IMG/VR virus record: IMGVR_UViG_3300045256_000822
Span: 1-58,085 of that record
Direction: 5' to 3' (one strand)
DNA length: 58,085 bases
From: a virus
Taxonomy: Duplodnaviria > Caudoviricetes
A program made the translations under genes and the position numbers. Below, in pieces: positions 373-49,844 of this stretch. How positions within the stretch are numbered: the first letter of the stretch is position 1; the number at the start of each line of letters is the position of its first letter. The notes beneath the pieces were generated by a model. It was not told where the DNA came from, did no database searches, and worked only from the letters and a program-made list of their open reading frames with translations.

Positions 373-846
373 ATGGCAACGAGCTTATCGCCGCTGATCG
401 GCGCTTTCTTGCTCGCAGTTTTTAGCCTCGGTGGTTGCGATCGGCAGCCTAGCACGTCGGACAGCCGGAAGGCTGACTTTCCGGCTTCCGAATGCACATT
501 GCCGAGTTTTCACGTGCCGGGTGAGAACGTGGTCCATGGGGAAGGCCCAAACGATCACGTTGGCAGGGCAACAGTGTATTCAGGCGCTTCGGCGACGGTT
601 TGTTCAAAATTCTTCGATGCGTCGAAGTCGGTGGCTGGCGTCTACTGTAGCGTTGAGCAGAACCCGAGCATTGGGATGGTCGGATGCCCGCTCATTGCCG
701 ACTGCCCGGCGCCGGTTGTGGGTCGCGCAACTTGGGTGTCATTGCGAGATTCGGTCGCGGGAAGTCGACGTCAGATCTGCGGCGACTTCACCAACAGAAC
801 GCAAACGACCATAGGCGCAGAACTGTGGGTGAAGACCGCACCGTAG
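373..846 (+). CDS. Cys-rich lipoprotein, unknown function
   Basis: Hydrophobic N-terminus ending SLGG-C; six further Cys; starts 10 nt after upstream gene. Confidence 0.7.
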   Translation: MATSLSPLIGAFLLAVFSLGGCDRQPSTSDSRKADFPASECTLPSFHVPGENVVHGEGPNDHVGRATVYSGASATVCSKFFDASKSVAGVYCSVEQNPSIGMVGCPLIADCPAPVVGRATWVSLRDSVAGSRRQICGDFTNRTQTTIGAELWVKTAP

Positions 847-851
847 CAGCG

Positions 852-2168
852 CTAGACGATATTTTTTTTGGCGTCCTTGGATCTCGGAGGCATCCCGATC
901 GGCATTGCTGCGATGAGCTGCTGTCGCATAGCCTCAACATCCTGCTCATAGCGCTCGATCGACCGGTCATCGCGCCACCCCGCCTGCGCCTTGATGAAGC
1001 TGCGCGGGATCTGCATCGCGCGGCCGTAGGTGGCGAACCAGTGCCGCAGCCAATGCTGAGTGAACTGCCGTACTAGCCGGGCATCCGCTCGCAGCTGGTC
1101 CGCCAGCGCGGGATCGCCGTCCCGCCGGGCGCGCACAGAGGCGCGCAGCAGGGCCCGGATGGCTCGCCGCTTCATCGCATTGAGGCCGGTCTTATTGAAC
1201 CCCGAGGCGCCCTTGTCGAAGGCTTTCCGGCTGTACGGACGACGGTGGTGCGTCAGAAACAGCGGCTCCTTCCGCATGTGCAGGCGGCCGCGCCACTCCA
1301 GATACTCTCGGAGGACCTCGACGGCAGCCGGGTGCAACTTCGCGACCACGTCGTCGCCGTTCTTGGTGTTGTGGAAGGTGACTTGGCAGCGGGCATCCGT
1401 CAGCACGAGGTCGCCTAAGGCGCACCCGAAGATGATGCTTGATACGCGGGCGCCGGTTGACCACTCGGTGTAGAGCTGCGCGCGCAGGCTGATATGTGCG
1501 TGGCCGAAGACAAACACGAGGAGGTCCGGCCGCAGCTCGGCGACGCGCCGGCGAGGGCGGGGTGCCTGGCGCTTCGTCTTCTCGCGGGCGGCATCCGGAT
1601 CCACCAGCGCCGGCACGGCTGGGAGATAGCCGCGGTCCTCGTGAACGCACCATTTGAGGAACGGTCGGACGATGTTGACGTGGCGTTGCCTCGAGTCCTG
1701 AAGGTTGCCGACGTGCCGCGCGTCGAGCCAGTCACGCCAGTCCTTCGACTGTATCTCGGTCAGCAGCCGGAACCCGAACTTCCGCACGACCTCCTGAATG
1801 ATGCCGAAGTCCTTGTGGGACATCTTGGCACCGCGTCCGCCCGGCTTCGGTGTGCCATCCGGCCTTAGTTCGAGGTACTCACTAGCCGCAACCGCGACGG
1901 GCCTGGTCGGCTTGACCCCGTGGATGACCTCGCCACGGATTTCGTCCTCGAGCTTGCGCCGGATGGCGTCGGCGTCTTCCCAGAGATCTGGTCGCGCCGG
2001 CAGTTCAGTACTGCGTCGTACGCGGACTGAATCGCCCTTGACCCTAAGGGTCCCGTGTACGTGCCAGTAGCCGTCCCGCTCGATGATGCGGAGAGCCGTG
2101 TTCCGTGCTTTGCGCTGTCGTGGGCGATGATTGCGGCGCGGAGGGCGCTGTACGTCTGCTCGGTCCAT
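852..2168 (-). CDS. int: Tyrosine recombinase / phage integrase
   Basis: Catalytic motifs TGARVSS (R), TKNG (K), HWLRH (HxxR), AGW...ERY (W, Y); start codon uncertain. Confidence 0.93.
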   Translation of the reverse strand: MDRADVQRPPRRNHRPRQRKARNTALRIIERDGYWHVHGTLRVKGDSVRVRRSTELPARPDLWEDADAIRRKLEDEIRGEVIHGVKPTRPVAVAASEYLELRPDGTPKPGGRGAKMSHKDFGIIQEVVRKFGFRLLTEIQSKDWRDWLDARHVGNLQDSRQRHVNIVRPFLKWCVHEDRGYLPAVPALVDPDAAREKTKRQAPRPRRRVAELRPDLLVFVFGHAHISLRAQLYTEWSTGARVSSIIFGCALGDLVLTDARCQVTFHNTKNGDDVVAKLHPAAVEVLREYLEWRGRLHMRKEPLFLTHHRRPYSRKAFDKGASGFNKTGLNAMKRRAIRALLRASVRARRDGDPALADQLRADARLVRQFTQHWLRHWFATYGRAMQIPRSFIKAQAGWRDDRSIERYEQDVEAMRQQLIAAMPIGMPPRSKDAKKNIV

Positions 2169-2320
2169 CGCTTGTCTCGGCCGATGAAATGGTGGAACTG
2201 GAATAGCCGCTCGGAAGGCCTCCGCAGGGCGTCCTCGCGCAGGCGGTCCTGTAGCCAGCGGACGGACTTGTTCAGTCGGCCAGCTACGACCTCAATAGTC
2301 AAGTCACTGGATGCATTCAT
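1865..2320 (-). CDS. Excisionase-like HTH protein overlapping the integrase 5' end
   Basis: LTIEVVAGRLNKSVRWLQ is MerR/Xis-like HTH; GRDKRWTE wing; lies directly upstream of int; Ser/Thr-rich tail in the overlap. Confidence 0.65.
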   Translation of the reverse strand: MNASSDLTIEVVAGRLNKSVRWLQDRLREDALRRPSERLFQFHHFIGRDKRWTEQTYSALRAAIIAHDSAKHGTRLSASSSGTATGTYTGPLGSRAIQSAYDAVLNCRRDQISGKTPTPSGASSRTKSVARSSTGSSRPGPSRLRLVSTSN

Positions 2321-13423: not shown

Positions 13424-13983
13424 TGCTGAGCCTCGTCGGAGACATCCCGTATTTCCGCTGCCTCGTGCGGCGCGAATACACGCGCAACCTGAAAGACGGC
13501 TTCGGCGAGTACCTCGAGGCGATCGCGCATCAGGTCGTCTGCCGCCGCGGGCACATGCTGGCGTTCAACGTCGTCTTCACGTCGCCCGAGGCCGGCGGTG
13601 CTCTCTGGCACGGCATGCCGATCGAGGCGCTGTGCTGGAAGCAGAGCCAGGCGCCGAAGCAGTCTGACCTGATCGCACCGTGGAACTGTCTGTCGCAGGA
13701 CTTCGCCGTCTCGGAGATGCGCTTCCTCGCGCGTGGCCGCGTGCAGGTCATGGCCGGAGGGCAGCGTCATCCGGGGCGCTACCGCTTCACGGTCGATTTC
13801 TCGGGGAGCGACCTCGCTGACGATCCGGCGCAGCACAAGTGCCTGCATGTCTGCCAGATGGACGCCGGCCACTTCGGCGCCTTCCCGAACAACCGAATCC
13901 TTTTCGAGGACCCGGCCTTCTGGGGCGTGGCCCAGGGGCGGCCGGATTTCACCGAAAGCTACCACGAGTTCACAGGGGAATGA
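13423..13983 (+). CDS. Conserved phage hypothetical protein
   Basis: IPYFRCLVRREY, PWNC, YRFTVD, QHK, PNNR motifs; coupled gene. Confidence 0.75.
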   Translation: MLSLVGDIPYFRCLVRREYTRNLKDGFGEYLEAIAHQVVCRRGHMLAFNVVFTSPEAGGALWHGMPIEALCWKQSQAPKQSDLIAPWNCLSQDFAVSEMRFLARGRVQVMAGGQRHPGRYRFTVDFSGSDLADDPAQHKCLHVCQMDAGHFGAFPNNRILFEDPAFWGVAQGRPDFTESYHEFTGE

Positions 13984-13985
13984 CC

Positions 13986-15599
13986 ATGGGGGAATACGGA
14001 CTGATCATCGACAACTTCGCTGGAGGAGGGGGCGCCTCCGAAGGCATCCGGCGAGCGCTCGGGCGCGGGCCGGACGTGGCCATCAACCACGATCCGGAGG
14101 CCGTCGCCATGCACGCGGCGAACCATCCCGAGACCGAGCACTACTGCCAGAGCGTCTGGCGGGCGGATCCGCGCGACGTGGTGCGCGGCCGGCCGGTGGC
14201 GCTGGCGTGGTTCTCGCCGGACTGCAAGCACTTCAGCAAGGCGAAGGGCGGCAAGCCGGTCGAAAAGCACATCCGCGACCTCGCATGGGTGGTGGTGCAT
14301 TGGGCCAGGCTGGTGAAGCCGCGCGTGATGATCCTCGAGAACGTCGAGGAGTTCCGCGATTGGGGCCCGCTGATCGAGACGAAGGACGGCGTGCTCGTCC
14401 CGTGCCCGGAGCGCAAGGGCCTGACGTTCCGGCGCTGGGTGCGCGAGATCCGCAAGGAGGGATACGCAGTCGAATGGCGCGAGCTTCGCGCCAGCGATTA
14501 CGGCGCCCCGACCATCCGCAAGCGCCTGTTCGTCATCGCGCGCCGCGACGGCAAGCCCATCGTTTGGCCGGAGCCGACGCACGGGACGGGACTGCTGTCG
14601 TACCGGACCGCGGCCGAGTGTATCGACTGGTCGATCCCGTGCCCGTCGATCTTCGAGCGGGACAAGCCGTTGGCCGAGGCAACCATGCGGCGCATCTTCG
14701 AGGGCATCCGCCGCTACGTCGTGGATGCAGTGGACCCTTTCATCGTGCCGATCACGCACGCCGGTGACTCTCGTGTGCATCCGATCGACGACCCGCTGCG
14801 GACGGTGACGACCGCGCACCGCGGAGAGCTGGCGCTCGTGGAGCCGTTCGTGGCTGGCTGCGGCGGCCGCGCCTCGCAGTCGCCGCCTAAGAGCGTCGGC
14901 CAGCCGTTCAACACGGCGACGACCAAGGCCGATCAAATTTTCGTCGCTCCGTACCTCGTGCCGCGCTACGGCGAGCGGCCGGGCCAGGTCCCGCGCACGC
15001 ATGCGGTCGACAAGCCGATGCCGGTCGTGGTGCCGACGGCCAACGGCGGCAGCCTTGTGGTCGCGCACATGGAGCAGGCGAACACGGGCATGGTCGGGCA
15101 CGACGCGCGCAAGCCGCTGTCCACCATCGTCAGCCGAGGCACGACGCAGCGCCTCGTCACCTCGCACCTCGTGAAGCTCCGCGGCACCTGCAAGGACGGC
15201 CAGGATGTGCACCGCCCCATGCCGACGATCACCGCCGGCGGCTGGCACATCGGCGAGGTCCGCGCCTTCCTGATGAAATACTACTCGTCAGGCGGCCAGC
15301 TGCAGAGCCTGCGCGAGCCGATGCACACCACGACGGCGAAGGCCCGCATGGGGCTCGTCACGGTGCGCGGCGAGGCCTTCCAGATCGTCGACATCGGCAT
15401 GCGGATGCTCGCCCCGCGCGAGCTATTCCGCGCGCAGGGCTTCGGCGACAGCTACATCATCAACCCGCTGTTCCACGGCAAGCCGCTGACCAAGACGGCG
15501 CAGATCCGCATGTGCGGCAACAGCGTCTGCCCGCCGATCGCCGAGGCCCTTGTGCGCGCGAATGTCGCCATGCCGCAGGAAGAGCGCGAGGTCGCGTGA
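13986..15599 (+). CDS. C5 cytosine DNA methyltransferase
   Basis: DNFAGGGG, SPDC, ENV, RKRLF, GNSVCP; repeated PxxTxT target-recognition segments. Confidence 0.95.
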   Translation: MGEYGLIIDNFAGGGGASEGIRRALGRGPDVAINHDPEAVAMHAANHPETEHYCQSVWRADPRDVVRGRPVALAWFSPDCKHFSKAKGGKPVEKHIRDLAWVVVHWARLVKPRVMILENVEEFRDWGPLIETKDGVLVPCPERKGLTFRRWVREIRKEGYAVEWRELRASDYGAPTIRKRLFVIARRDGKPIVWPEPTHGTGLLSYRTAAECIDWSIPCPSIFERDKPLAEATMRRIFEGIRRYVVDAVDPFIVPITHAGDSRVHPIDDPLRTVTTAHRGELALVEPFVAGCGGRASQSPPKSVGQPFNTATTKADQIFVAPYLVPRYGERPGQVPRTHAVDKPMPVVVPTANGGSLVVAHMEQANTGMVGHDARKPLSTIVSRGTTQRLVTSHLVKLRGTCKDGQDVHRPMPTITAGGWHIGEVRAFLMKYYSSGGQLQSLREPMHTTTAKARMGLVTVRGEAFQIVDIGMRMLAPRELFRAQGFGDSYIINPLFHGKPLTKTAQIRMCGNSVCPPIAEALVRANVAMPQEEREVA

Positions 15600-16494: not shown

Positions 16495-17922
16495 ATGACA
16501 GTGCGCATTCTCATAGGCGACGTGCGGGCGAAGCTCAAGGAGCTGCCGGACGAGTCCGTGCACATGGCGGTGACGTCGCCGCCCTACTGGCGCCTGCGGG
16601 ACTATGGCACCGGCACATGGGTCGGTGGAGATCCCGCGTGCACTCACGAACCGCCCCCGTCGCGGCACCGTGGCAAGCACACCGCCGCATCGCGACATGG
16701 CCATCGCTCGAAGGCCGAGCGCGACCACCGGAGTTGCCGCTGCGGAGCGGTCCGCGAGGACGACCAGCTCGGGATGGAGGAGTCGCCGGCGGACTACATC
16801 GCCACCATGGTCGAAGTCCTCCGCGAGGTCCGGCGCGTGCTGCGCAAGGACGGGACGCTCTGGCTCAACATGGGCGACTGCTACGCGGGACAGTCTGGCG
16901 GCTGGCAAGGCAAGAACGGCTCGAGGGCGTCAAGGACGTTCACCGCGCGCATCCGCGCGAAGAAGGCTGGCGGGCTCTGCATCAAGCGCAAAGACCAGAT
17001 CCTGATGCCAGCGAGGCTGGCGATCGCGCTGTGTGACGACGGCTGGTACATCCGCCGCCGCATCATCTGGTACAAGCCGAACGCCATGCCGGAGAGCGTG
17101 CGCGATCGGCCGGCGAACGCGCACGAGGACGTCTACCTTCTCTCGAAGCGGCCCCGGTATTTCTTCGACGCCGAGGCAGTCAAGGAACCGGCGAGCACCG
17201 AGACGCACGCGCGGGTGGCCGCTGGCAGGAAGAAGCCGGCCGGCTGGGACATGGGCCCAGGTGGACACCGGAGTCTCGCGGGGCGCTACAGCAACGGCGT
17301 GACGCCAAAGACCACGGACGAGCGGAACGGGAACCGCAACAACGCCTCGTTCATGGCGGCGGTCTCGCCGATCGTCGTCGAAACCCGGAACATGCGCGAC
17401 GTCTGGGTCATCCCGACCGAGCCTTATCCCGACGCGCACTTCGCAACGTTTCCGCTGGCCATCCCGGAGCGCTGCATCCTTGCCGGCACGAGCGAGCGGG
17501 GAGTGTGCCCGCACTGCGGTGCGCCGTGGCTGCGCGTCGTGAAACGCCGGCGCGTGAACTCGAGCAATGCCGCGAAGGCCGGGACGAAGATCAAGGGGAA
17601 GGGCCACCCGACCAGCCAGGCGCGCGAGGACCACGACGTCCGGAACGGGCCCGTGGCGATCACGAAGACGGTCGGATGGAAGCCGGGGTGCGGCTGCGCC
17701 GATAACGTTCCGGTCCCCGCGACGGTCCTGGATCCGTTCGGCGGCGCCGGCACCACGGGGCTCGCGGCGGCGCGGCTAAGGCGCAACGCCATCCTCATCG
17801 AGCTCAAGCCTGCCTATGCCGAAATGGCGCACGCGCGCCTCAAGGCGGCGCTGGTCGAGGACGTGAAGGGCGCGAAGCCCCGGATGCAGGCAGGCCCGCT
17901 GTTCGAGGACGTGGCGGCATGA
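16495..17922 (+). CDS. N4-C/N6-A DNA methyltransferase (beta class)
   Basis: VTSPPYW, HFATFP, VLDPFGGAGTT. Confidence 0.93.
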   Translation: MTVRILIGDVRAKLKELPDESVHMAVTSPPYWRLRDYGTGTWVGGDPACTHEPPPSRHRGKHTAASRHGHRSKAERDHRSCRCGAVREDDQLGMEESPADYIATMVEVLREVRRVLRKDGTLWLNMGDCYAGQSGGWQGKNGSRASRTFTARIRAKKAGGLCIKRKDQILMPARLAIALCDDGWYIRRRIIWYKPNAMPESVRDRPANAHEDVYLLSKRPRYFFDAEAVKEPASTETHARVAAGRKKPAGWDMGPGGHRSLAGRYSNGVTPKTTDERNGNRNNASFMAAVSPIVVETRNMRDVWVIPTEPYPDAHFATFPLAIPERCILAGTSERGVCPHCGAPWLRVVKRRRVNSSNAAKAGTKIKGKGHPTSQAREDHDVRNGPVAITKTVGWKPGCGCADNVPVPATVLDPFGGAGTTGLAAARLRRNAILIELKPAYAEMAHARLKAALVEDVKGAKPRMQAGPLFEDVAA

Positions 17923-40496: not shown

Positions 40497-41297
40497 ATGG
40501 GCTTCTTCGACTCCATCAGCGGTTTCTTCGGCGGTGGCGGCAGCGGGGTCGGGAGCCTCGTCGGGGCCGCCGCCAGCCTCGGCGGTGCGCTCATCGGCTC
40601 AAAGGCGAACAAGGATGCCGCCCGCACGGTCTCGCAAAGCCAAGCGCAGGCAGCGCAGACGGCGGCCGATGCGTATCTGCGCGGCGCCGAAATCATGGCC
40701 GAAGGCAACAAGCAGGCGCAGGCGCGACTGCAGCCGTTGGCCGACACCAGTGCACCGGCGATCAACTATCTGCGCACCGTGATGGCGCAGGACCCGGCGA
40801 CTCTCACACCGAGCCAGGAGACCTTGCGCGCGGACCTGACGCGGCGGGCGAACACACAGCTGGCGAGCTCGGGCCTGCGCGGATCGGGCCGCGCGGTGAC
40901 CGCTTCGATCAACGACGTCGACCGCCGCTTCCGCGACGACGCCTACGATCAGAATCTTCATCGCGCTGACCAGGCGGCAGGCAAACTGGCCGGCACGTAC
41001 ACAAGCACGCTCGGCGACATCGCCGATATCGATCGCCGCACGTCGGAAGGGCGCGCACAGGCCGTGCAGCGCGGCGGCGATGCCTTCGCCGGCGCGACGC
41101 GCGCGGGAGGAGAAGCGGCGGCCGGCGCCGACGTGGCGAACGCCAATCAGTGGGGCAGCGCCATGGGCATGATCAGCTCGCTGCTGGCGCAGGACCGCAA
41201 GGAGCGCACCGGCGCCTACCCAGTAGGCCAGAACATCAAGTGGGACAGCCCGCGCTACAGCGACACCTACGCCGGCACGTCCGACTATTACGCATAG
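40497..41297 (+). CDS. DNA ejection protein (P22 gp7-like)
   Basis: Gly/Ala-rich N-terminus, A/Q-rich helices, GLRGSG motif. Confidence 0.7.
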   Translation: MGFFDSISGFFGGGGSGVGSLVGAAASLGGALIGSKANKDAARTVSQSQAQAAQTAADAYLRGAEIMAEGNKQAQARLQPLADTSAPAINYLRTVMAQDPATLTPSQETLRADLTRRANTQLASSGLRGSGRAVTASINDVDRRFRDDAYDQNLHRADQAAGKLAGTYTSTLGDIADIDRRTSEGRAQAVQRGGDAFAGATRAGGEAAAGADVANANQWGSAMGMISSLLAQDRKERTGAYPVGQNIKWDSPRYSDTYAGTSDYYA

Positions 41298-41305
41298 GTC
41301 ACGCC

Positions 41306-42271
41306 ATGGTGCAGTACCTGACCCAGAATCCCGCTGTCGAAGGCTTCCAGGCCGGCATGCGCATGCAGGACGACGCGCGCGCGCGCGAGTTGCGGGATCT
41401 CCAGCTGGATGAAGCCTATCGCCGTCAGGGACAGGAGCGCGCGGCGACCGACGCGCTGCAAAACCTCTATGCGCGCGGCCGGCCGACTCCTGAAGCCTAC
41501 GATCAGGCAGCGGCGGCCCCCGGGCTCGGCGCGCAGCAGCGCATGCAGCTGGCAGGGCAGGGCGAGACGATCCGCCAGCGCAATCTTCAGGAGCGCGAAG
41601 CGGCCGCGCGGGACATGGCGACCTATCTGAAGCTCGGGCACATCCCCGCCGCGCAGGAGGCGGCGTCGCGCGCCGGCATCAATGTCCCGCCCGATTTCTG
41701 GTCGAACCGGGATCAGCAGACGCAGTTGCTGCAAAAGCTCGACATCGAGGCGAAGCAGGCCGACATCGCCCAAAAGCAGGCGCACGCGCAGTTCTGGCGC
41801 GGCGAGGGGCGGCAGACCGCGAGCGGTGCCGGTCACACGAGCGTGTTCCAGCAGAAGATCGCGCTCTACAAGGCAGCCTACCCCGACAAGAGCGATGCCG
41901 AAGTCCTCGAGATGGCGGACGGTCGCAAGCCGCCCAATCCCGCCGACCTCCGCGCGCGCGCGTTCGTCATCGCCCAGAAAGCGACCGATCACCTCGGCCG
42001 CCCACTCTACAAGACGCCGGAGGATCAGCGGCGCGCGGCCGATGAAACGCTGGCCTACATGCTCGGCGGCCAGCCGCAGACCGCTGCCGTGCCCGCGCCG
42101 GCAGCGCCGCCGACGGCGGCACCGCCCGCATCGCCAGCGCCAGCACCCGCTCCCGCAGCGCCGGCTGCTGCCGCGGGGCCGGACATGAGCCAGGCGCGTA
42201 AAGCACCTGACGGGCAGTGGTACGTGCCGGATCCGAGCCGCCCCGGCAAATTCCTTCGGGTCGAGCCGTGA
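41306..42271 (+). CDS. DNA ejection protein (gp20-like)
   Basis: Q/A-rich helical; PA linker; C-terminal ARKAPDGQWYVPDPSRPGK. Confidence 0.7.
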   Translation: MVQYLTQNPAVEGFQAGMRMQDDARARELRDLQLDEAYRRQGQERAATDALQNLYARGRPTPEAYDQAAAAPGLGAQQRMQLAGQGETIRQRNLQEREAAARDMATYLKLGHIPAAQEAASRAGINVPPDFWSNRDQQTQLLQKLDIEAKQADIAQKQAHAQFWRGEGRQTASGAGHTSVFQQKIALYKAAYPDKSDAEVLEMADGRKPPNPADLRARAFVIAQKATDHLGRPLYKTPEDQRRAADETLAYMLGGQPQTAAVPAPAAPPTAAPPASPAPAPAPAAPAAAAGPDMSQARKAPDGQWYVPDPSRPGKFLRVEP

Positions 42272-45200
42272 AGCTCGTCGAAGTCGACCACGATCCCTTC
42301 ACCCAACCCGATCCGCAGCTCGTCGACGCCGTTCTCTCCGTAGAGAGCGGCGGGCGCGCGGATGCGGTCTCGCCGAAAGGGGCGACGGGTGTGGCGCAAA
42401 TCATGCCCGCGACGGCGCGCAGCCCAGGGTATGGCGTCGAGCCGCTGAGCGATCCGAGCGATCCGGAGCAGAGCCGCCGCTTCGGCCAGCAGTATCTCGG
42501 CGCGATGATCCGCAAGTACGGCGACGTCGACACCGCGCTGATGGCCTACAACTGGGGCCCGGGCAACGTCGATCGCTGGATTGCGGGCGGGCGCACCGGT
42601 CCCGTGCCGAACGAGACCAGCAGCTACGTCGAGAAGGTGAAGGCGAAAGGCCCACGCCTCGTTCCGGTCGAAGGCGACCCTTTCAAGCAGCCGTCGCAAT
42701 CCGCGCAGCCGAAGTTCACTCCAGTCGAGGGCAATCCCTTCGAGGCGGCGCCGGCCGAACCGAGCGAACAGCCCGACGAGCCGTTCCTGACCGATCCGCG
42801 CTGGAGGCGTGCGCGGCCGCCGCTGCAGTCCACGATGGTCAAGGAGCGGCTTCGCGCGGGCACCTATGGGCTCGGCGCCGGTCTCAGCGCTGCCGGCGCC
42901 ACGACCGCCGCGAGCATGCTCGACACGTTCGATCGCATCGACAGCGGCGAGAACGTGCCGGAATCCGACGACCCGGTCGGCTACCAGCACATGAACGAGG
43001 AGCAGCGGCGCCAGGCGCGCGCCGACATGCAGGCTTCGCTGGGCCGCAACGTCACGACCATGGTGCAGCGGCAGGCCGAGGCGGGGAAGACTCCTCCCTC
43101 CGAGACGACCCAGCGCGCGCTCAATGCGAAGACATGGGGCGAGTTCTGGGACGCGTTCACAGACGCACCGGGCCGGTTCATCGTCGAGACAGGACTCGAA
43201 TCGCTCCCCGCGTCCGCTCCCGGCCTCCTCCTCGGCGGTGGCGCCGGCGCCTTGCGCGGCCGCGTCGCCGCCATGCTCGGCATGGGCGGCGGCTCGTTCG
43301 CGGTCGACTTCGCAACCCAGCTGGTCGACGCGCTGAACGATGCCGGCGTGGACGTCTCCGATCCAGCCGCGGTCGAAGCCGCGTTGCGAGATCCCGAGAT
43401 GAACCGCGCCATCCGCCAGCGCGCGGCCCTGCACGCGGGACCCGTGGCCGCGCTCGATGCCGCCTCGGCCGGTCTCGCGACGAAAACCCTCGTCCCGCGC
43501 GCGGTCGCAAAGCCGATTGTGCGCGAGGCGCTCAACATCCCCGCTCAGGTCGGCGCACAGGGTGCACTCGGCGGTGCCGGCGAGGCGCTCGGCGAACTGG
43601 CGAGCGGTCAGGAATTGCAGCCCGGCCAGATCATGGCAGAAATCGCGGGCGAGGCCTTCGGCGCACCCGCCGAAGTGGCCTCGCTCGCCGGCGCGCGCGA
43701 CCATGCGGCGCCTGCTACGCCGCCACGTCCCGGGCCATCAGCTGCGGACCTCAAGGAAGTCCTCGAGGACAAACGTCCCGTTGAGGAGATCATGGCCGAG
43801 CGCCAGCGCGCGGCCGAAGCAGAGCACGAGCAGCTCACGCGCGATCGCCTCGTCGCACAGGTCCAGCAGGAGACCGGCGACACGGCCATGGCCGATGCCT
43901 TCCGCAAGGCGCTCGAAGGCAAGGGTGCGCGCACGGAACCGATGGACGTCGAAACCGGTGCGGACGTTGATGCAGCAGCCGCACAGGCAGATCCGGAGCC
44001 GACGCCGGCGCAAGCGGATGCCGGGAACTATCGCAAGGGCCACATCAGGATTGACGGGCTCGACATCGCGATCGAGACCGCGCGCGGCGACGTGCGCACC
44101 GGCATCGGATCGGATGGACAGCCGTGGTCGAGCGTGGCGCCGGCCCACTACGGCTACATCAAGCGCACGGTCGGTAAGGACGGCGATCAGGTCGACGTCT
44201 ATGTCGGGGACAATCCGCAGTCCGGTCTGGTGACGGTCATAGACCAGATCGACCCCGAGACCGGCCGCTTCGACGAGCACAAGATCGTTCTCGGGGCGGA
44301 CAGCCAGGCGGAAGCGCTGGCGCTCTACGACGCCGGCTTCAACGACGGATCCGGAGCAGCGCGGCGCGGCGCCGCCACCACGATGACCATGCCCGAGTTC
44401 AAGGCGTGGCTCGCCAAGGGAGACACGAAGAAGCCCCTCGCTTATCGCCCTGCGGCTCCCGTCTCCTCTCCGGCGGTCGAGCCTGCGGCGCCGCCCCCGG
44501 CTCCGGTTGCGCCTTCCGTCGAGCCGGGGGCGGTTGTCAGCACGATTTCTGTGGGTGCGACGGTCACCGTCGACACAGCGGATGGCGAGCAGGATGGCAC
44601 CGTGCAGGAGCGGTGGTTGCGTCAGGGCGTCCCATACATGCGCGTCGTCGACGACAATGGCGAGACGATTTACGAGGGGCCGATGAGCGCCGCGACCCCG
44701 GTCGCGTCGATGCTTCAGCGCGGTTTTGGCGAGAAAGGCGTCCAGTATTCGCTTGCGCTCGATATCCCGAAGGCGGAGCGTGCGCGCGAGCAGCCGCAGC
44801 CTACATCCGAGCCGGCGCAGTCGGCTCAGGCTCAGAGCGACTTCGAGCGCAGCGCCGTCGCCCCGTCATCGGCGGGCAGGCCGGACCTTGTCGTTCACGA
44901 CACGATAGACGGCCGGCCGGTCACGTACACAGCACCGGACCTCCTTCACAGGCGCCTGTTGAGCTACGCGCTCGACCTCGACGCCGGCCGACGCCGCCCG
45001 CGCGAGCGCAGTGCGCTCTTCAAGGCTTTCAAGCCTCTCATCGTCGAGGACTTCGCGAAGCCCGCCGACCTCGACCAGCTGGCAGCCGACTATCTCGAGA
45101 ACCTCCGCGCGAACGCGCACGATCGCAAGCTGAGCACGCTCAACGCCGAACTCGTCGTCGAGCCGGATCTTCAGGCCGAGTATTGGCGCACGAAGGTCAT

Positions 45201-48200
45201 GGCCGGCCGCAAGGGAGGCTCGCTCTACCACGCCGCCCCAGGTTGGACCGAAGCCCGCATCAAGCGGGAAATCGCGCGCGGCCTGTCGGCGATCGACGAC
45301 CTCTCGCGACGGAAGACCGGCCAGGTCATGGCGGCGATGTATCGGCCGGACCTTGGGCCGATCACGTTCGACTGGGGCCAGCCGGGCACCGGGCCGCGCT
45401 TCAAGAAGGGTGCAGGGGTGAGCCACATCCTCGCCAAGCACGGCGAGGCGGTCCTGAAGCGCATGCCGGAAGTAATCGCCCGCGGCAATATCGACCGGCT
45501 GCAGGGGCCCGAGGTCGGGCGGCGGGTCCATATCAGCTACGACGGGCACAGGGCCGTGCTCTCCCTGTGGCGCCACGGGGCGCAGGAGACCTGGCTTCTG
45601 ACGGGCTGGGATGAAGGGAACCCCGGCGGAATTGGCGGAGTGTACGGTCCGGCCAACCCTACGCTCTCCGGGCCTATGCGTTCTCGTCCCGAAGGGGGAG
45701 CGGGGTCCTCCGGTAATATAAGTGCAGCCAAGCCTGGCAGCAAGTTGCAGGCCGGCATGGCGATTTCCGGGGTCCCAGGCGTGACCCGCGTCGAGCGGGT
45801 GGCTCCGGACATGATCGGCGTCTACCGGTTGACCCCGGAAATGGAGGCGCGCCGCGCCCAGCTCGAGCCGCAGCTGCGCGCGATCGTGCAGCGGATGGCG
45901 GGTGGCAACGCGCCGGCGCTGACCGTCGTAGACACCCTGTTCACCGACAACCCGGACGACCAGGGCGCGCATTTCGGGTCCTACTCGCCACTGGCGAACC
46001 TCATAGCTATCTCGACTCAGTCTCCCGATCCGATCGGCACCGTCCGCCATGAGACCATCCATCTCCTGCGGCAGCTCGGGATCATCGATCGTGCGGCATG
46101 GAGGACCCTCGAAACCACCGCCATGGAGCGGAACTGGATCGGCAAGCACGACATCGAAACCCGGTATCCCGGCGCCGACGGCGATCTGATGCTCGAAGAG
46201 GCGATCGCAGATGAATTCGGCCGGCGCGCGACGTGGCTGCAGCTGCCGCCCGCGGTCAATGCCGTCTTCCGCAAGGTCGACGAGTTCTTCCGGCGCGTGC
46301 GCGCGGCCGTGCGGCGTGTGTTCGGCCGGGAGCCGGACTTCAAGGACCTTTTCACCGCGATCGAGCGCGGGTGGTACGCGGAGCAGCAGCCGTCGGAACC
46401 GGCAACGGAGCGCGCGGCCGCTCAGCGCGCCGTTGAGGATTTCAGCACCATGCAGGCCCAGGCGGTGCGCGACGACACCAGGCCGGAGAAGAAAGAGGCG
46501 ACTCTCCGGTCAGCGCTCGACACGCTGCACTCGAAGCCGCCGACCACTCCGGCACGGCCACTGCCTTTCGAGCATGATCTCGGCGGCTTCCAGCGGTCGA
46601 TGATCCACCCGCGCACGATTGCGGCGATGTACCCAGCCTTCACACCCGTGTGGAATGCCGGCGTCAAGCAATTCGCCACGCGCGATCGCGTTGCCGGCGA
46701 ACTGATCGGCCTGAAGGAGGCTTACGACAAGCTCTCCAACGAGCAGAAGGCGAACGTCAACAAGGTGCTCGAGCTGGGGCGCTTGCAGGGCGAGACGTTC
46801 CGGCCAGGCACCGACGGTCGGATTGTGACGCGCAACACGGTCGGCACGGCCGGAACCGGAAGCATCGGCGGTGCTGCGCTCTCGAAGGCCGGCGAGACCG
46901 TGACGCTGAGCCCGGACGAGGCGCTGGGCTATCTCGCCGTGCGGCGGACGATGGACAGGGCCCTCGACCTGTTCAAGGACCAGATGCTGCGCGAGTGGGG
47001 CTTCGACCCGTCGCTGCCCGGCACGCCCAAGACCGCACGCGAGTTCGAGGAGATGGCCAAGGAGGCCTCGGACGCGGGGGACGCGCCGACGGCGGAACGG
47101 CTGGGCAAGATCGCCAACGTCCTCGCCGAGGTCGAAATGGCACGCAAGCGCGGCTACGTGCCGTTCACGCGCTTCGGCCAGTGGTACGTCACGGTGCGCT
47201 CCGGTGATTCCGACATCGTGCATCGCGAACACTTCGAGGTGCCAGGCGGCACCTGGCGCGGGCCCGTGGGAGCCATCCAGCGCCGCCGCTGGGCGGCGAC
47301 GATCGAGGAGCGCCGGCGCGAGCTGATGCGCATGTACCCGCGAAGCGCCGGCTTCACGGTCTCGAATGTCCAACGCGTCACGCCGAAGACGATCGAGGAC
47401 CTGCCGAGCCTCGCCGATATCAGCGGGCTCCTGTCGGCGGCGCACCTCGACGTTGCGACGGCGGCGCGGGTCGAGGAAGCCGTGAACCGCGTGATCAAGG
47501 AGATGGGCTTTCGCAAGCACTTCATCAACGCGCGGAACGTCGCGGGATATTCGGCCGACTTCGACCGGAGCCTTGCGGACTACGTCACAGGGCTCGCCGG
47601 CTATCTGGGGCGGCGCGCGGCACGGGATGATTTCGAGGAAGCGTTGGCGCGGATTCCGAACGACACGTCGAAGCTGAAGCGCTACGCGACCGACTGGCAC
47701 GAGTACATCCAGGCGCCGAGCGAGGAATGGGCGCGGCTGCGGCAGGCGGGATTCCTCTATTACCTTGCTGGCCGCATTTCGAGCGCCGCGGTGAACCTGA
47801 CTCAGGTCCCCGTCGTCACGATGCCGTATCTCTCGCAATTCGCGGATCCGGCGCGCGTGAACATCCAGCTGGGGCGGGCCTATACCGATCTCTCGCAGAT
47901 GATGTCGGTCGACGCGGCGAAGAAGCTGACCATCTTCGACCCCGACAAGGCGCCCGAGGACGTGCGCGCCGACCTGAAGAAGGCTTTCGCGGACGGGACG
48001 CTTGTCCCGCTCGAAACGTTCCAAGAGATGGCGAAGGCGCACGGACGCACGCCGAGGGGCCGCCAGATCGAGCGAGGTGCCCGGAAGGCGATGGACCTTG
48101 CGGCACTGGCGTTCAGCGCTGCCGAGCGCGTCAACCGCATTGCCACGTTCATCGCCGCACACCGCCTCGCGCGCATGCCCGGCGTGATGGCCAAGGCCAG

Positions 48201-49350
48201 CCACGTCCTCGCCAGCAATGAGCTATGGGCCTCGTCGGACGAGTGGCGGACGCCGGCCGGCTTCGCGAAATGGGCCAGCGACGAGACGCACTACGTCATG
48301 GGTAAGCTGAATCGCCCGACGTTCATGCGCGGGCCCGGCTCGCTGATCTTCCAGTTCAAAGGGTTCACCGCGAACACGCTGGAGCTGTTCTGGCGCATGG
48401 GCTTCATGCACGAGGGGGCGGCGGGGAAGGGGGCTCTCGCTCTGTCCGCGCTGATGCTGCTCGTCTTCGGTGGTCTGTTCGGCCTGCCCGGCGCCGACGA
48501 CCTGAAGGAGTGGGCCGAGTATGTCTACAAGAAGGTCACGGACAAGGATATCGACCTTGAGCGCGAACTGCGCGCGATCGCCGGCGGGGGACTGCTGGGC
48601 CGCATGGTCGCTCGAGGACCCGCGCGCGAGGTGACCGGCGTCGACCTCTCGAAGCGAGTCGGCATGGGCGACATCATGCCGAACCCTGGCTTCGGTGATG
48701 ACGCGCTCCGTCAGGTCGCGCCGCTGCTTGGCGTGCCATTCGATCTTCTCGTGATGCGTCCCCTCGACGCGGGCACGGCCGTCGGCCGCGGTGACCCCCT
48801 CAGCGCCGCAATCCGGCTGTCTCCGGAAGCGATCGCGGACCCGCTCCGTGCCTTGCAATGGCAGACACGCGGATCGGTCGCGCGACTCACGGGGCGGAAG
48901 ATCCTCGACCGCGATCAGACTCTGCCGACTGGCGAGACCCTGCGAGATCCCGCGAACCTCGCGAAGCGGGCCATGGGCTTCCAACCTACTGGTGTTGCGC
49001 GCGCCATGGAGGAATACGGCGCCATCAACCGCGCCTCGCGCGCGGCGAATGACCTTTCGGCGACGTTCAACACGCGCCTTGCGTCCGCAATGGTCGCCGA
49101 ACAGCGCGCCGAGACCCCAGAGGCCCAGGCGAAAGCGCGCGCGGATCAGGAATCGGTGCTGCGCGACATCGAACGGCACAACCTCACGGCACCCGACCAC
49201 CTCCAGGTCGTGCCGTTCCAGAAGGGCCGCCCCAGCCCCGGCCTGCGCGCCGCCCTCGAGCGCGAGAACTACGGGTCCTACGCGACCCAGGACAAGCGCC
49301 TGCCGAAGAAGGCGCGCGGCGAAGCCGAAGCCATCCGTCCACTCTACTGA
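42268..49350 (+). CDS. Giant polyvalent ejection protein: lytic transglycosylase + inorganic-pyrophosphatase-like + PBECR nuclease + metallopeptidase + PLxRFG + helical C-terminus
   Basis: VESGG/GVAQIMP/AYNWGPG/ET..YV; YGYIKRT.G.DGDQVDV/FDEHK; ITFDWG/GVSHILAKH/WLLTGW; HETIH; YVPFTRFG. Confidence 0.9.
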   Translation: MKLVEVDHDPFTQPDPQLVDAVLSVESGGRADAVSPKGATGVAQIMPATARSPGYGVEPLSDPSDPEQSRRFGQQYLGAMIRKYGDVDTALMAYNWGPGNVDRWIAGGRTGPVPNETSSYVEKVKAKGPRLVPVEGDPFKQPSQSAQPKFTPVEGNPFEAAPAEPSEQPDEPFLTDPRWRRARPPLQSTMVKERLRAGTYGLGAGLSAAGATTAASMLDTFDRIDSGENVPESDDPVGYQHMNEEQRRQARADMQASLGRNVTTMVQRQAEAGKTPPSETTQRALNAKTWGEFWDAFTDAPGRFIVETGLESLPASAPGLLLGGGAGALRGRVAAMLGMGGGSFAVDFATQLVDALNDAGVDVSDPAAVEAALRDPEMNRAIRQRAALHAGPVAALDAASAGLATKTLVPRAVAKPIVREALNIPAQVGAQGALGGAGEALGELASGQELQPGQIMAEIAGEAFGAPAEVASLAGARDHAAPATPPRPGPSAADLKEVLEDKRPVEEIMAERQRAAEAEHEQLTRDRLVAQVQQETGDTAMADAFRKALEGKGARTEPMDVETGADVDAAAAQADPEPTPAQADAGNYRKGHIRIDGLDIAIETARGDVRTGIGSDGQPWSSVAPAHYGYIKRTVGKDGDQVDVYVGDNPQSGLVTVIDQIDPETGRFDEHKIVLGADSQAEALALYDAGFNDGSGAARRGAATTMTMPEFKAWLAKGDTKKPLAYRPAAPVSSPAVEPAAPPPAPVAPSVEPGAVVSTISVGATVTVDTADGEQDGTVQERWLRQGVPYMRVVDDNGETIYEGPMSAATPVASMLQRGFGEKGVQYSLALDIPKAERAREQPQPTSEPAQSAQAQSDFERSAVAPSSAGRPDLVVHDTIDGRPVTYTAPDLLHRRLLSYALDLDAGRRRPRERSALFKAFKPLIVEDFAKPADLDQLAADYLENLRANAHDRKLSTLNAELVVEPDLQAEYWRTKVMAGRKGGSLYHAAPGWTEARIKREIARGLSAIDDLSRRKTGQVMAAMYRPDLGPITFDWGQPGTGPRFKKGAGVSHILAKHGEAVLKRMPEVIARGNIDRLQGPEVGRRVHISYDGHRAVLSLWRHGAQETWLLTGWDEGNPGGIGGVYGPANPTLSGPMRSRPEGGAGSSGNISAAKPGSKLQAGMAISGVPGVTRVERVAPDMIGVYRLTPEMEARRAQLEPQLRAIVQRMAGGNAPALTVVDTLFTDNPDDQGAHFGSYSPLANLIAISTQSPDPIGTVRHETIHLLRQLGIIDRAAWRTLETTAMERNWIGKHDIETRYPGADGDLMLEEAIADEFGRRATWLQLPPAVNAVFRKVDEFFRRVRAAVRRVFGREPDFKDLFTAIERGWYAEQQPSEPATERAAAQRAVEDFSTMQAQAVRDDTRPEKKEATLRSALDTLHSKPPTTPARPLPFEHDLGGFQRSMIHPRTIAAMYPAFTPVWNAGVKQFATRDRVAGELIGLKEAYDKLSNEQKANVNKVLELGRLQGETFRPGTDGRIVTRNTVGTAGTGSIGGAALSKAGETVTLSPDEALGYLAVRRTMDRALDLFKDQMLREWGFDPSLPGTPKTAREFEEMAKEASDAGDAPTAERLGKIANVLAEVEMARKRGYVPFTRFGQWYVTVRSGDSDIVHREHFEVPGGTWRGPVGAIQRRRWAATIEERRRELMRMYPRSAGFTVSNVQRVTPKTIEDLPSLADISGLLSAAHLDVATAARVEEAVNRVIKEMGFRKHFINARNVAGYSADFDRSLADYVTGLAGYLGRRAARDDFEEALARIPNDTSKLKRYATDWHEYIQAPSEEWARLRQAGFLYYLAGRISSAAVNLTQVPVVTMPYLSQFADPARVNIQLGRAYTDLSQMMSVDAAKKLTIFDPDKAPEDVRADLKKAFADGTLVPLETFQEMAKAHGRTPRGRQIERGARKAMDLAALAFSAAERVNRIATFIAAHRLARMPGVMAKASHVLASNELWASSDEWRTPAGFAKWASDETHYVMGKLNRPTFMRGPGSLIFQFKGFTANTLELFWRMGFMHEGAAGKGALALSALMLLVFGGLFGLPGADDLKEWAEYVYKKVTDKDIDLERELRAIAGGGLLGRMVARGPAREVTGVDLSKRVGMGDIMPNPGFGDDALRQVAPLLGVPFDLLVMRPLDAGTAVGRGDPLSAAIRLSPEAIADPLRALQWQTRGSVARLTGRKILDRDQTLPTGETLRDPANLAKRAMGFQPTGVARAMEEYGAINRASRAANDLSATFNTRLASAMVAEQRAETPEAQAKARADQESVLRDIERHNLTAPDHLQVVPFQKGRPSPGLRAALERENYGSYATQDKRLPKKARGEAEAIRPLY
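45618..45743 (-). ncRNA. Putative intragenic antisense promoter (TTGCTG-N17-TATATT, 45743-45715) and ~91-nt structured RNA (45708-45618)
   Basis: Predicted +1 coincides with the first base of an 8-bp closing stem; internal UUCG hairpin and long hairpin. Confidence 0.55.
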
Positions 49351-49358
49351 GGCTCACC

Positions 49359-49844
49359 ATGATGACCGTGATCGTCTGCGCCCTCGCCGGCGCGGTGCTC
49401 TTCCGCGTGCGCGGCGGCCTTCTCGACCTCTGGCATATCGATATCGGCACCGTGCGAGGTCGGATCGCCTGGTCGTCTCTCGGCGTCCTCGTGGCGCTTC
49501 TTGCCGTCGATTGGAGGCTCGTCGGGCTCTGCCCGCTGCTGCTGGCCGGCACATTCATGGGCTGGCCGCGCTCGATCGACATGGGCCGGAACGAAGGCGA
49601 ATGGCAGGTCGATTTCTACGCGCACATGGGGCGCGGGATCTTCTTCACGTTGCCGTGCGCGCCGCTCCTGTGGCTGGTCACCGGTAACGACTGGTTCGGC
49701 TATGTCGGCCTGCTCGCCGGACCGCTGTACGAACTCGGTTGGCGCACGCCGTCCAAGATACCGGGCTTCTTGCGAGGGGCCGAGATGGGCGAAGCGTATT
49801 TCGGTGCTGCGATCGGCGCCGCACTGGCCGTGGCGGTGCCATGA
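49359..49844 (+). CDS. Multi-pass membrane protein
   Basis: Several hydrophobic helices; RVRGG and E..E..FG motifs. Confidence 0.75.
   Translation: MMTVIVCALAGAVLFRVRGGLLDLWHIDIGTVRGRIAWSSLGVLVALLAVDWRLVGLCPLLLAGTFMGWPRSIDMGRNEGEWQVDFYAHMGRGIFFTLPCAPLLWLVTGNDWFGYVGLLAGPLYELGWRTPSKIPGFLRGAEMGEAYFGAAIGAALAVAVP

What the first reader, a model, noticed from the sequence alone, without database searches (positions are those of the whole stretch)
45270..45743. Antisense promoter and compact structured RNA embedded right after the nuclease domain of the giant ejection protein: candidate built-in RNA antitoxin
Seen: the PBECR-like domain ends at WLLTGWD (~45612). The following linker (GNPGGIGGVYGPANPTL...SSGNISAAKPGSK) has an AT patch that reads TTGCTG-N17-TATATT on the minus strand (45743-45715). 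Seven nt downstream (45708) begins GGACCCCG, which pairs with CGGGGTTC (45625-45618). This closes a ~91-nt fold containing a CC-UUCG-GG hairpin and a long hairpin (CGGAG/CTCCG, GTA/TAC, GGTT/GACC). The RNA starts at the predicted +1 and ends at the nuclease boundary. Known: BECR-fold domains are RNases, polyvalent proteins carry them, and type III TA systems neutralise RNases with structured RNAs. Inference: the lysogen transcribes an RNA that blocks or decoys the RNase. It would be absent in a naive cell when the protein is injected, giving a toxin/RNA-antitoxin cassette nested in a virion gene, and possibly a form of self versus non-self immunity.
Basis: partly seen in the sequence, partly recalled or inferred. 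Interest (0 to 1): 0.88.

Follow-up and report, generated by a model that had tools for sequence, protein, structure and literature searches.

The report
Hidden antisense RNA gene in phage
A structured small RNA gene of about 96 bases, with its own promoter, lies on the opposite strand inside the linker that follows an RNA-cutting domain of a giant phage virion protein, and the same hidden RNA recurs in dozens of distantly related phages, so it may be an undescribed RNA partner of injected phage nucleases.

Summary
In this sequence alone they look like chance: the promoter scores 8/12, and the fold has z -0.88.

Related loci change that verdict. I fetched PBECR1 loci by DNA pattern. In 45 cluster representatives (below 80% nucleotide identity), the same place carries antisense TTG-N20-TAnnnT, held at synonymous codon positions. 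Bacteroidota-type loci carry TAnnTTTG there instead.

Downstream lies a ~96-nt three-helix RNA. On a structure-blind alignment, 89.9% of cells pair against 60% in shuffles, and 19 of 22 pairs show compensatory changes. G·U pairs outnumber A·C pairs 98 to 12 on the antisense strand.

A covariance model hits the window at 45616-45711(-) with 81.5 bits. It hits 62 of 63 PBECR1-confirmed loci and no sense strand. Rfam 15 has no match. The encoded "tail" peptide is predicted disordered.

The antitoxin role is untested, and 4 of 15 loci found from the RNA side lack a detectable PBECR1.

The parts
42217..49350 (+). Giant polyvalent virion protein gene (2377 aa from the GTG; the database copy P0002 is 2360 aa). 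Domains: SLT 32-123, InPase 598-732, PBECR1 1040-1133, an HExxH motif (HETIH) downstream of the linker, and PLxRFG 'tail-700' 1646-2305.
45334..45615 (+). PBECR1 domain (predicted BECR-fold RNase), ending in ...ETWLLTGWDE. The Thr of TGW is T in 151, S in 10 and N in 3 of 164 homologues.
   Evidence: Pfam PF18809, 31.8 bits, cut-off 27.6. Column counts. AlphaFold pLDDT 90-95. VIA-align Z 5.0-6.6 to toxin-antitoxin, CdiA-CT, BrnT, RelE and colicin D entries.
45616..45745 (+). Translated linker (GNPGG...PGSK). It is predicted disordered. Its apparent peptide conservation mirrors the RNA gene and promoter on the other strand.
   Evidence: pLDDT 40-49 and no secondary structure. Codon third positions are invariant where the residue varies.
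45738..45743 (-). -35 hexamer TTGCTG. The TTG is the conserved part.
   Evidence: At the homologous columns the + strand has C in 32/45, A in 37/45 and A in 40/45. The C is a codon third position, with 13.0 expected.
45715..45720 (-). -10 hexamer TATATT, which is the Asn-Ile codons AAT ATA on the + strand.
   Evidence: At the homologous columns the + strand has A in 35/45, T in 40/45 and A in 33/45. NTA codons occur in 32 of 40, with 5.8 expected.
45616..45711 (-). Structured small RNA, a new family modelled as R1. The predicted 5' end is about 45708, 7 nt after the -10.
   Evidence: cmsearch 81.5 bits, E 1.4e-19. Covariation. G·U 98 against A·C 12.
45701..45708 (-). P1, 5' strand (GGACCCCG). 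It pairs with 45618-45625.
   Evidence: 7 of 8 pairs have compensatory changes and 97% of cells pair.
45618..45625 (-). P1, 3' strand (CGGGGTTC). In homologues it is followed by a U-rich run; in the window the run is weak (CCUUCAUCC).
45665..45695 (-). P2 hairpin (45695-45686 with 45674-45665), with a conserved loop ACGAnUAnnCGUAGG.
   Evidence: 9 of 9 pairs have compensatory changes and 90.1% of cells pair. Column counts.
45628..45659 (-). P3 hairpin (45659-45653 with 45635-45628), with a conserved loop GUAnnAACCUC. It is preceded by the junction GCGUAG (45664-45659).
   Evidence: 6 of 7 pairs have compensatory changes and 90.5% of cells pair. Columns 51 and 52 are invariant in 48 of 48 rows.
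852..2168 (-). Integrase. This is context only: it shows the phage is temperate.
   Evidence: phrog_1, E 2.7e-19

Best explanation
Positions 45616-45745 are doubly coded. On the + strand they are translated as a disordered linker after the PBECR1 RNase domain. On the - strand they carry a complete small-RNA gene: a promoter read by the host RNA polymerase (-35 at 45743-45738, -10 at 45720-45715) and a ~96-nt RNA (45711/45708 to 45616). The RNA folds into a three-way junction of helices P1, P2 and P3. Its conserved unpaired motifs are GCUCCC, ACGAnUAnnCGUAGG, GCGUAG and GUAnnAACCUC.

Shown computationally: the promoter core, the structure, which strand is structured, and the tight linkage to PBECR1. 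I give about 0.9 that this is a real, selected RNA gene.

Inferred:
- Host polymerase makes the RNA in any cell that holds the phage genome, independently of late-gene activation.
- The RNA acts as the antidote or regulator of the neighbouring effector module.

My preferred mechanism is that the PBECR1 domain recognises the RNA, which then works as an inhibitor or decoy. This follows type III logic without the type III layout. The reason for preferring it is that specific unpaired nucleotides stay invariant across phyla, even at synonymous sites, and a purely cis-antisense RNA would not need that. I give this about 0.35. The figure below is for 'RNA gene that controls the adjacent effector module, by either route'.
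For: Promoter:
- In 45 cluster representatives, the antisense strand of the 200 nt after TGW scores >=9/12 in 23. Control antisense windows of the same ORFs reach that in 87 of 825. For >=10/12 the counts are 11 of 45 against 9 of 825.
- Resampling synonymous codons predicts 8.2 representatives at >=9 (observed 23) and 1.8 at >=10 (observed 11). The combined p is 1.3e-5.
- Anchoring by the peptide alignment alone gives A....TA-N20-CAA on the + strand. All 6 core bases are present in 18 of 45 and at least 5 in 33 of 45. At control in-frame positions the rates are 0.05% and 0.62%.
- Third-base A is seen in 32 of 40 NTN codons, with 5.8 expected. Third-base C is seen in 32 of 45, with 13.0 expected.
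- Among 58 distinct RNAs, 14 have an extended -10 (TGn). Ten have the Bacteroidota-type TAnnTTTG, including L123 from a Bacteroidaceae MAG.

RNA:
- On the structure-blind MAFFT alignment A3, 19 of 22 pairs show compensatory changes and 89.9% of cells pair, against 60.0% in shuffles.
- The covariation score is 0.782 against 0.224, reached by 0 of 500 shuffles. Slid controls give 0.10-0.26.
- G·U pairs number 98 and A·C pairs 12 on the antisense strand.
- Three codon-third-position columns are invariant.
- The RNA persists where it is not translated: 7 of 58 distinct RNAs lie outside an open frame.

Linkage:
- 62 of 63 PBECR1-confirmed loci have a model hit. The one miss is cut off at the end of the locus.
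- There was no hit in the loci that matched the DNA pattern by chance, and none on a sense strand, in about 1 Mb searched.
- L006 and L012 carry tandem copies.

Protein: the tail has pLDDT 40-49.
Against: - No transcript has been observed.
- Nothing tests binding or any effect on toxicity.
- The window's own promoter scores only 8/12, and its host is unknown.
- No canonical terminator was found. The run after P1 is U-rich in homologues but weak in the window.
- Of 15 loci found from the RNA side, 4 have no detectable PBECR1 beside the RNA or elsewhere in the record held. These are L131 and L134 next to LPD13 and MuF genes, L132 after an unknown domain, and L135.
- The PBECR1 loci were found through the (E)TWLLTGW motif, so they sample one subfamily. 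Phage PBC5's PBECR1 (TWLLTAF) has no RNA hit.
- Cluster representatives are still related to one another, so the p-values overstate independence.
Confidence: 0.55

Rival explanations
1. Cis-antisense (type I-like) control. The RNA pairs with its perfectly complementary stretch of the late mRNA, just 3' of the PBECR1 coding part. Pairing triggers cleavage or blocks translation, so leaky expression of the RNase module is suppressed in lysogens. This would resemble 3'-overlapping antisense antitoxins.
For: The RNA gene is antisense to the same transcript and begins right after the toxin-domain codons. In solo or truncated PBECR1 genes it overlaps the 3' end or the 3' UTR (L012, L079, L115). In L131 and L134 it is antisense to the spacer after an LPD13 gene. 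That fits control of the upstream gene whatever its domain. The phage is temperate.
Against: Perfect complementarity comes free with any antisense sequence. It does not explain why unpaired nucleotides stay invariant across phyla at synonymous sites. Nor does it explain why a three-way junction is kept. No data bear on cleavage.
Confidence: 0.25
2. A trans-acting phage RNA unrelated to PBECR1. It could be a regulator of host genes or an anti-defence decoy. It would be made early by host polymerase and merely lodged at module junctions of polyvalent or MuF genes, where its conserved DNA may also promote module shuffling.
For: 4 of 15 RNA-first loci lack a detectable PBECR1. The unpaired C-rich motifs (GCUCCC, AACCUC) resemble anti-Shine-Dalgarno seeds, which is my own reading. 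The promoters are adapted to the host.
Against: 62 of 63 PBECR1-confirmed loci carry the RNA at exactly the same place. 11 of 15 RNA-first loci have PBECR1. No candidate target was tested.
Confidence: 0.15
3. Selection acts on the peptide. The tail would be a conserved linear motif, for example a cleavage site for the polyvalent protein's zincin-like peptidase, and the nucleic-acid features would be by-products.
For: HMMER alignments of 114 of 164 homologues run at least 25 residues into the tail. An HExxH motif follows the linker in the window and in many homologues. Iyer et al. 2017 propose processing by the metallopeptidase domain (passages read).
Against: Nested antiparallel Watson-Crick and G·U covariation cannot come from peptide selection. 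Third codon positions are invariant while the residues vary. The RNA is retained out of frame or after a stop codon (L079, L099, L012). The tail is predicted disordered. A cleavage site could still coexist with the RNA.
Confidence: 0.03
4. Chance, or an ordinary linker: no promoter and no RNA. A variant of this reading is that the structure belongs to the sense mRNA.
For: The single-sequence tests are null: z -0.88, promoter 8/12, and 0 sites in the tool's scan.
Against: All the comparative results count against it. For the sense-strand variant, G·U pairs outnumber A·C pairs 98 to 12 on the antisense strand, and the model gave no sense-strand hit.
Confidence: 0.02

Closest known systems
Type I toxin-antitoxin systems with 3'-overlapping antisense RNAs (txpA/RatA, bsrG/SR4; also nuclease toxins with RNA antitoxins such as SymE/SymR). 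Named from recall, not from any call.
   Same: A small structured RNA with its own constitutive promoter, transcribed convergently and overlapping the 3' side of the toxin coding sequence. Often carried on prophages.
   Different: Here the toxin is a predicted RNase domain inside a 2377-aa virion protein. The RNA gene is translated on the other strand as an interdomain linker. The loops are conserved across phyla. No base-pairing mechanism has been shown.
Type III toxin-antitoxin systems (ToxIN, CptIN, TenpIN). Recalled.
   Same: An endoRNase toxin neutralised by a structured RNA encoded next to it. Two loci here have tandem RNA copies.
   Different: Type III antitoxins are arrays of short direct repeats upstream of the toxin on the same strand, and the toxin processes them. 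Here the RNA is antisense, downstream, usually single, about 96 nt and a three-way junction. PBECR1 is a different fold family from ToxN.
Antisense immunity RNAs of temperate phages (P1/P7 c4, P22 sar, lambda OOP). Recalled.
   Same: Small structured RNAs made by host polymerase from a prophage that hold a harmful phage gene in check.
   Different: Those lie in immunity regions and act on antirepressor or cII mRNAs. This one lies in the virion-protein region, inside coding sequence, and is conserved from Proteobacteria-type to Bacteroidota-type hosts.
Polyvalent proteins with PBECR domains (Iyer et al. 2017, PMC5512222; passages read)
   Same: The host gene is such a protein: SLT, InPase, PBECR1 and an HExxH motif.
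   Different: The main text does not contain 'linker', 'noncoding' or 'small RNA' (0 occurrences each), and its uses of 'immunity' and 'antitoxin' do not concern PBECR. I could not see its supplements.

Membership tests
Bacterial sigma70-type promoter | A -35 TTGACA-like and a -10 TATAAT-like hexamer, 16-18 bp apart, upstream of a transcript start | tested here: met
   The window scores 8/12 with a 17-bp spacer, below the tool's 9/12 threshold. Across 45 representatives the core TTG-N20-TAnnnT is conserved at the homologous site. TGn is present in 14 of 58 distinct RNAs. Promoter activity itself was not tested.
Bacteroidota-type promoter | A -7 box TAnnTTTG. The consensus is recalled from the literature. 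| tested here: met
   10 of 58 distinct RNAs have TAnnTTTG within 22 nt of the RNA start, including L123 from a Bacteroidaceae MAG. L128 (a Segetibacter MAG) has TACTTTTA. This does not apply to the window.
Structured non-coding RNA (in the sense of an Rfam-style family) | A conserved secondary structure supported by compensatory base changes | tested here: met
   19 of 22 pairs are compensatory on A3. Covariation is 0.782 against 0.224, reached by 0 of 500 shuffles. Slid controls give 0.10-0.26. On A4, 22 of 24 pairs are compensatory.
Any Rfam 15 family | A score at or above a family's gathering threshold | tested here: not met
   There was no hit at the site in the window at E<=10. There was none at the RNA sites in 12 homologous loci at gathering score. 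There were 0 hits at E<=10 on the L065 RNA.
Type III toxin-antitoxin | The antitoxin is a tandem array of short direct repeats upstream of the toxin, on the same strand | tested here: not met
   The RNA is antisense and downstream of the domain. It is single in the window, where the model gives one hit. Two copies were seen only in L006 and L012.
Type III toxin-antitoxin | The toxin is an endoRNase that binds and processes the RNA | not testable with these tools
   PBECR1 is only a predicted RNase. No protein-RNA test is available.
Type I toxin-antitoxin | A small antisense RNA overlapping the toxin transcript | tested here: met
   The RNA gene is antisense to the ORF, directly 3' of the PBECR1 codons. 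Transcription has not been shown.
Type I toxin-antitoxin | The toxin is a small, usually membrane-active peptide whose translation or mRNA stability is controlled by base pairing | tested here: not met
   The candidate toxin is a domain of about 95 aa in a 2377-aa protein. The pairing mechanism cannot be tested here.
PBECR1 (Pfam PF18809) | A score above the Pfam gathering cut-off, with a C-terminal Thr/Ser | tested here: met
   31.8 bits against a cut-off of 27.6. The T of TGW is T in 151, S in 10 and N in 3 of 164 homologues. The active-site description comes from Iyer 2017.
BECR fold (RelE / colicin D / CdiA-CT RNases) | Structural similarity of the domain model to solved BECR toxins | tested here: inconclusive
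   Foldseek gave no match at E<=0.001. VIA-align gave Z 6.6 (7vd7_A), 6.4 (7m5f_C), 5.7 (BrnT), 5.6 (RelE) and 5.0 (colicin D), but Z below 8 may reflect only a common arrangement.

The most novel reading that the evidence does not exclude
The RNA is an RNA immunity factor for a virion-delivered nuclease. It would be made constitutively from the resident phage genome and would bind the PBECR1 domain, perhaps through the two displayed CGUAG motifs acting as substrate mimics. That would silence the domain in the producing or lysogenic cell. It would also disarm the same nuclease when a related phage injects it. If so, polyvalent-protein effectors carry nucleic-acid immunity genes hidden in their own linkers, and the RNA helps decide superinfection outcomes between kin phages.
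Probability: 0.22. Interest if true: 0.92.

Novelty: new variant of a known kind. Interest (0 to 1): 0.85.

Why it matters
Polyvalent virion proteins deliver nuclease domains into cells. The defining paper's main text names no immunity partner for PBECR domains. A conserved RNA gene hidden in the linker right after the RNase domain is a concrete candidate that can be tested directly.

The finding also shows that a whole class of structured RNA can sit inside coding sequence, where surveys of intergenic regions do not look. The phage survey I read removed coding regions from DNA-virus contigs (passages). A 2026 preprint says its model cannot represent RNAs embedded in coding sequence (passage).

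The promoter changes from the sigma70 type to the Bacteroidota type at the same site. That is an unusually clean natural experiment showing that expression of the RNA is under selection.

Finally, it is a warning for protein annotation. A 'conserved peptide tail' seen in 114 of 164 homologues is best explained by an RNA gene on the other strand.

Tried and rejected
- Single-sequence tests gave a null result. I would have dismissed the finding on these alone.
- Fold z-scores of 23 homologues taken singly were also weak: antisense tail mean -1.37 against control -0.90, and z <= -2 in 4 against 5.
- The search for related loci with the window's protein found nothing in genome contigs or viral contigs.
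- blastn of the region against phages found no match. tblastn found 30 phage records; the domain matches among them stop at about query residue 172, the end of the domain.
- blastn of homologous RNAs found no match in phages, plasmids or E. coli genomes. Sensitivity is low for a 96-nt query.
- Sequencing runs: no RNA holder was listed. Laying 4 DNA runs showed only identical contigs and no variants in the region. Two 'skips ~850-875' joints rest on 20-22-nt sides at 80% likeness, and I disregard them.
- Extra tertiary pairs: 27-75 and 28-74 look paired (93% and 85%) but their neighbours do not. I make no pseudoknot claim.
- LPD13 and the domain upstream of the RNA in L132 show no profile similarity to PBECR1 (probability 0.2%).
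- The PF18809 family search on records missed 2 of 4 known positives, so I used profile A2 instead.
- Foldseek against the PDB gave no match at E<=0.001.
- Supplements of the RNA-catalogue papers could not be read. Non-coding instances of this RNA could be listed there under another name.
Full report
**What is at the site.** The window is a temperate phage.
- Genes found: integrase at 852-2168(-), Erf, an exonuclease, two DNA methyltransferases, terminase, portal, major head protein and a head-closure protein.
- Genome-search runs the window a virus record of 58,085 bases. DNA runs from hot-spring and microbial-mat metagenomes hold it.
- The ORF 42217-49350(+) encodes a 2377-aa polyvalent protein. 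Its domains are SLT (32-123), InPase (598-732), PBECR1 (1040-1133, nt 45334-45615, 31.8 bits against a cut-off of 27.6) and a C-terminal PLxRFG domain.

**First pass: nothing beyond chance.**
- The hexamers score 8/12. The promoter scan, which needs 9/12, finds none in 42000-49500.
- Matches of the same grade number 1 in the gene against 1.19 expected, and 12 in the window against 17.3 expected.
- The 91-nt fold has z -0.88, and 31 of 200 shuffles fold as well. 29% of 705 minus-strand windows of the same gene fold as well.
- Rfam gave nothing at the site.
- No close relatives were found by DNA or protein-guided searches. No RNA run was listed. Laid DNA contigs were identical to the window.

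**The lead.** Distant homologues share not only PBECR1 but also a 'tail' peptide after WLLTGW.
- In the 50%-identity library, 953 proteins match at E<=0.001.
- Of 164 homologues that I re-aligned, 114 align at least 25 residues into the tail. Of the other 50, 21 simply end there.
- The list was ranked with the tail included in the query, so this share is biased upward.

**Getting DNA.** I searched collections with degenerate patterns for (E)TWLLTGW.
- 63 loci were confirmed as PBECR1 by phmmer.
- 55 of them had at least 200 nt downstream.
- Those 55 fall into 45 clusters, each below 80% nucleotide identity over the end of the domain.
- The remaining pattern matches were chance hits and served as negative controls.

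**Promoter.**
- The antisense strand of the 200 nt after TGW reaches >=9/12 in 23 of 45 representatives and >=10/12 in 11 of 45.
- Control antisense windows of the same ORFs reach those scores in 87 of 825 and 9 of 825.
- The sense strand of the tail reaches >=9 in 7 of 45.
- I resampled synonymous codons while keeping each peptide and each ORF's codon usage. This predicts 8.2 representatives at >=9 and 1.8 at >=10. The combined p is 1.3e-5.
- I then anchored only on the peptide alignment, at the column of the window's Asn1167. The + strand there reads A (35/45), a, t, a, T (40/45), A (33/45), then N20, then C (32/45), A (37/45), A (40/45). On the antisense strand this is TTG-N20-TAnnnT.
- Two of these positions are codon third bases under varying residues. 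NTA occurs in 32 of 40 codons (5.8 expected; residues I, V or L). NNC occurs in 32 of 45 (13.0 expected; residues V, G, S, I or F).
- In contrast, third positions in the neighbouring GAG codons are free.
- Among 58 distinct RNAs, 26 have >=9/12 and 14 have an extended -10 (TGn).
- Ten RNAs have TAnnTTTG just upstream of the RNA start. Eight of them otherwise score poorly as sigma70 promoters; the other two (L010, L095) also score well as sigma70 promoters. One of the eight is L123, from a Bacteroidaceae MAG.
- TAnnTTTG as the Bacteroidota -7 consensus is from recall. A promoter that changes type with the host, at one fixed place, argues for selection on transcription.

**RNA.** I aligned 43 antisense segments, from the predicted +1 to the TGW codons, with MAFFT alone (A3).
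- RNAalifold found three helices with 22 pairs, 19 of them with compensatory double changes.
- Pair counts: 89.9% of cells pair against 60.0% in shuffles. There are 301 double-change cells against 100.8. The covariation score is 0.782 against 0.224, reached by 0 of 500 shuffles. Slid controls give 0.10-0.26.
- G·U or U·G pairs number 98 and A·C or C·A pairs 12, so the antisense strand is the structured one.
- Covariance model R1 (96 positions) gave 50 hits in 100 sources (769 kb) and 16 hits in 31 sources (229 kb). Every hit was antisense to the PBECR1 gene. No hit fell in a chance locus.
- 62 of 63 PBECR1-confirmed loci are hit. L117 is cut off at the locus end. L018 and L028 are hit but had failed my protein filter because of in-frame stops.
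- The window scores 81.5 bits at 45616-45711(-).
- The refined structure has P1 of 8 bp, P2 of 9 bp and P3 of 7 bp, with 97.0%, 90.1% and 90.5% of cells paired. 22 of 24 pairs show double changes. A4 is fitted to the model; A3 is not.
- Three codon-third-position columns are invariant (46/46, 47/47 and 48/48) although locus GC ranges from 0.38 to 0.70.
- After P1 comes a U-rich run, with T at 0.48-0.85 over six positions. In the window it is weak.

**The peptide is a by-product.**
- AlphaFold models the domain at pLDDT 90-95. The tail scores 40-49 with no secondary structure.
- In L012, L079, L099 and L115 a stop codon or frame change follows the domain, yet the RNA scores 58-84 bits.
- 7 of 58 distinct RNAs are not inside an open frame.

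**Limits of the PBECR1 link.** I also searched from the RNA side, with an RNA-core pattern in viral contigs. It gave 15 loci: 10 already known and 5 new. All five new loci are model hits at 68-86 bits.
- L133 has a PBECR1 with the variant ETWLFNGW.
- In L134 and L131 the RNA lies in the spacer after a solo LPD13 gene. In L131 a MuF gene follows the RNA.
- In L132 the RNA is embedded after an unrecognised domain.
- L135 is unclear.
- Neither LPD13 nor the L132 domain resembles PBECR1 (probability 0.2%).
- Profile A2 finds no PBECR1 domain in the four records. These are 11.6 kb, 60 kb (73% complete), 55 kb (86% complete) and 4.6 kb. A positive control scored 1e-28.

**Is it known?**
- Only one paper in the library contains 'PBECR1', namely Iyer et al. 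2017. Its main text has 0 occurrences each of 'linker', 'noncoding' and 'small RNA' (passages read).
- Rfam 15 has no match.
- The phage csRNA survey PMC10690425 used only intergenic regions for DNA viruses (passages). A 2026 preprint states it cannot model RNAs embedded in coding sequence (passage).
- I saw PMC8040213 and PMC5737381 only as search listings. Supplements were closed.

**Mechanism.** The RNA gene is well supported; I give it about 0.9. Its function is inferred. It travels with an effector module, is driven by a host-type promoter and sits in temperate phages. My estimates:
- An antidote or regulator of the adjacent module, by either route: 0.55.
- Within that, recognition by PBECR1 as an inhibitor or decoy: about 0.35. 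I prefer it because unpaired bases are invariant.
- A cis-antisense, type I-like action: about 0.25.
- An unrelated trans-acting role: about 0.15.

The BECR-fold assignment of the domain is consistent but weak: Z 5.0-6.6 to toxin-antitoxin, CdiA-CT, BrnT, RelE and colicin D entries.

Noticed in passing
L012, L079, L099, L115 (loci): A stop codon or frame change comes directly after the PBECR1 domain (for example ...TGWKDY*). The RNA stays intact downstream at 58-84 bits. So the RNA also exists as a 3'-UTR or intergenic antisense gene.
   Followed up: partly
L006:2000-2095(-) and 2156-2248(-); L012:762-857(+) and 628-723(+): There are two tandem, diverged copies of the RNA, each with its own upstream promoter-like element. 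Proteins P0003 and P0004 show the matching duplicated tail peptide.
   Followed up: partly
L134:42-136(+) and L131:11282-11376(+): The same RNA sits antisense in the spacer after a solo LPD13 (PF18825) gene, followed in L131 by a Phage_Mu_F gene. No PBECR1 was detected in the records. This hints at how an intergenic RNA gene could become a translated linker through gene fusion.
   Followed up: partly
window 45661-45664 and 45674-45678 (minus strand; model columns 34-38 and 49-53): Two near-invariant unpaired CGUAG motifs lie in the P2 loop and the P2/P3 junction, and the single-stranded motifs GCUCCC and AACCUC are C-rich. They could be recognition sites or anti-Shine-Dalgarno-like seeds. Not tested.
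   Followed up: no
window 45970-45990 region (+), residues around HETIH: An HExxH motif follows the linker in the window and in many homologues. It is possibly the zincin-like peptidase that Iyer et al. propose for processing polyvalent proteins. No Pfam hit was found here at E<=0.01.
   Followed up: no
window 13839-15599(+) and 16495-17922(+): The phage encodes two large DNA methyltransferases (phrog_116 at E 3.4e-101 and phrog_67 at E 8.5e-63).
   Followed up: no
window 44985-45861 (table 5): Low-similarity contigs in two runs join across about 850-875 nt. The joints rest on only 20-22 matching letters at 80% likeness, so they probably come from other organisms.
   Followed up: no
window 42217 vs 42268: The database copy of the giant protein (P0002, 2360 aa) starts 17 codons after the GTG used here. 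The 41150-42271 ORF overlaps the start.
   Followed up: no
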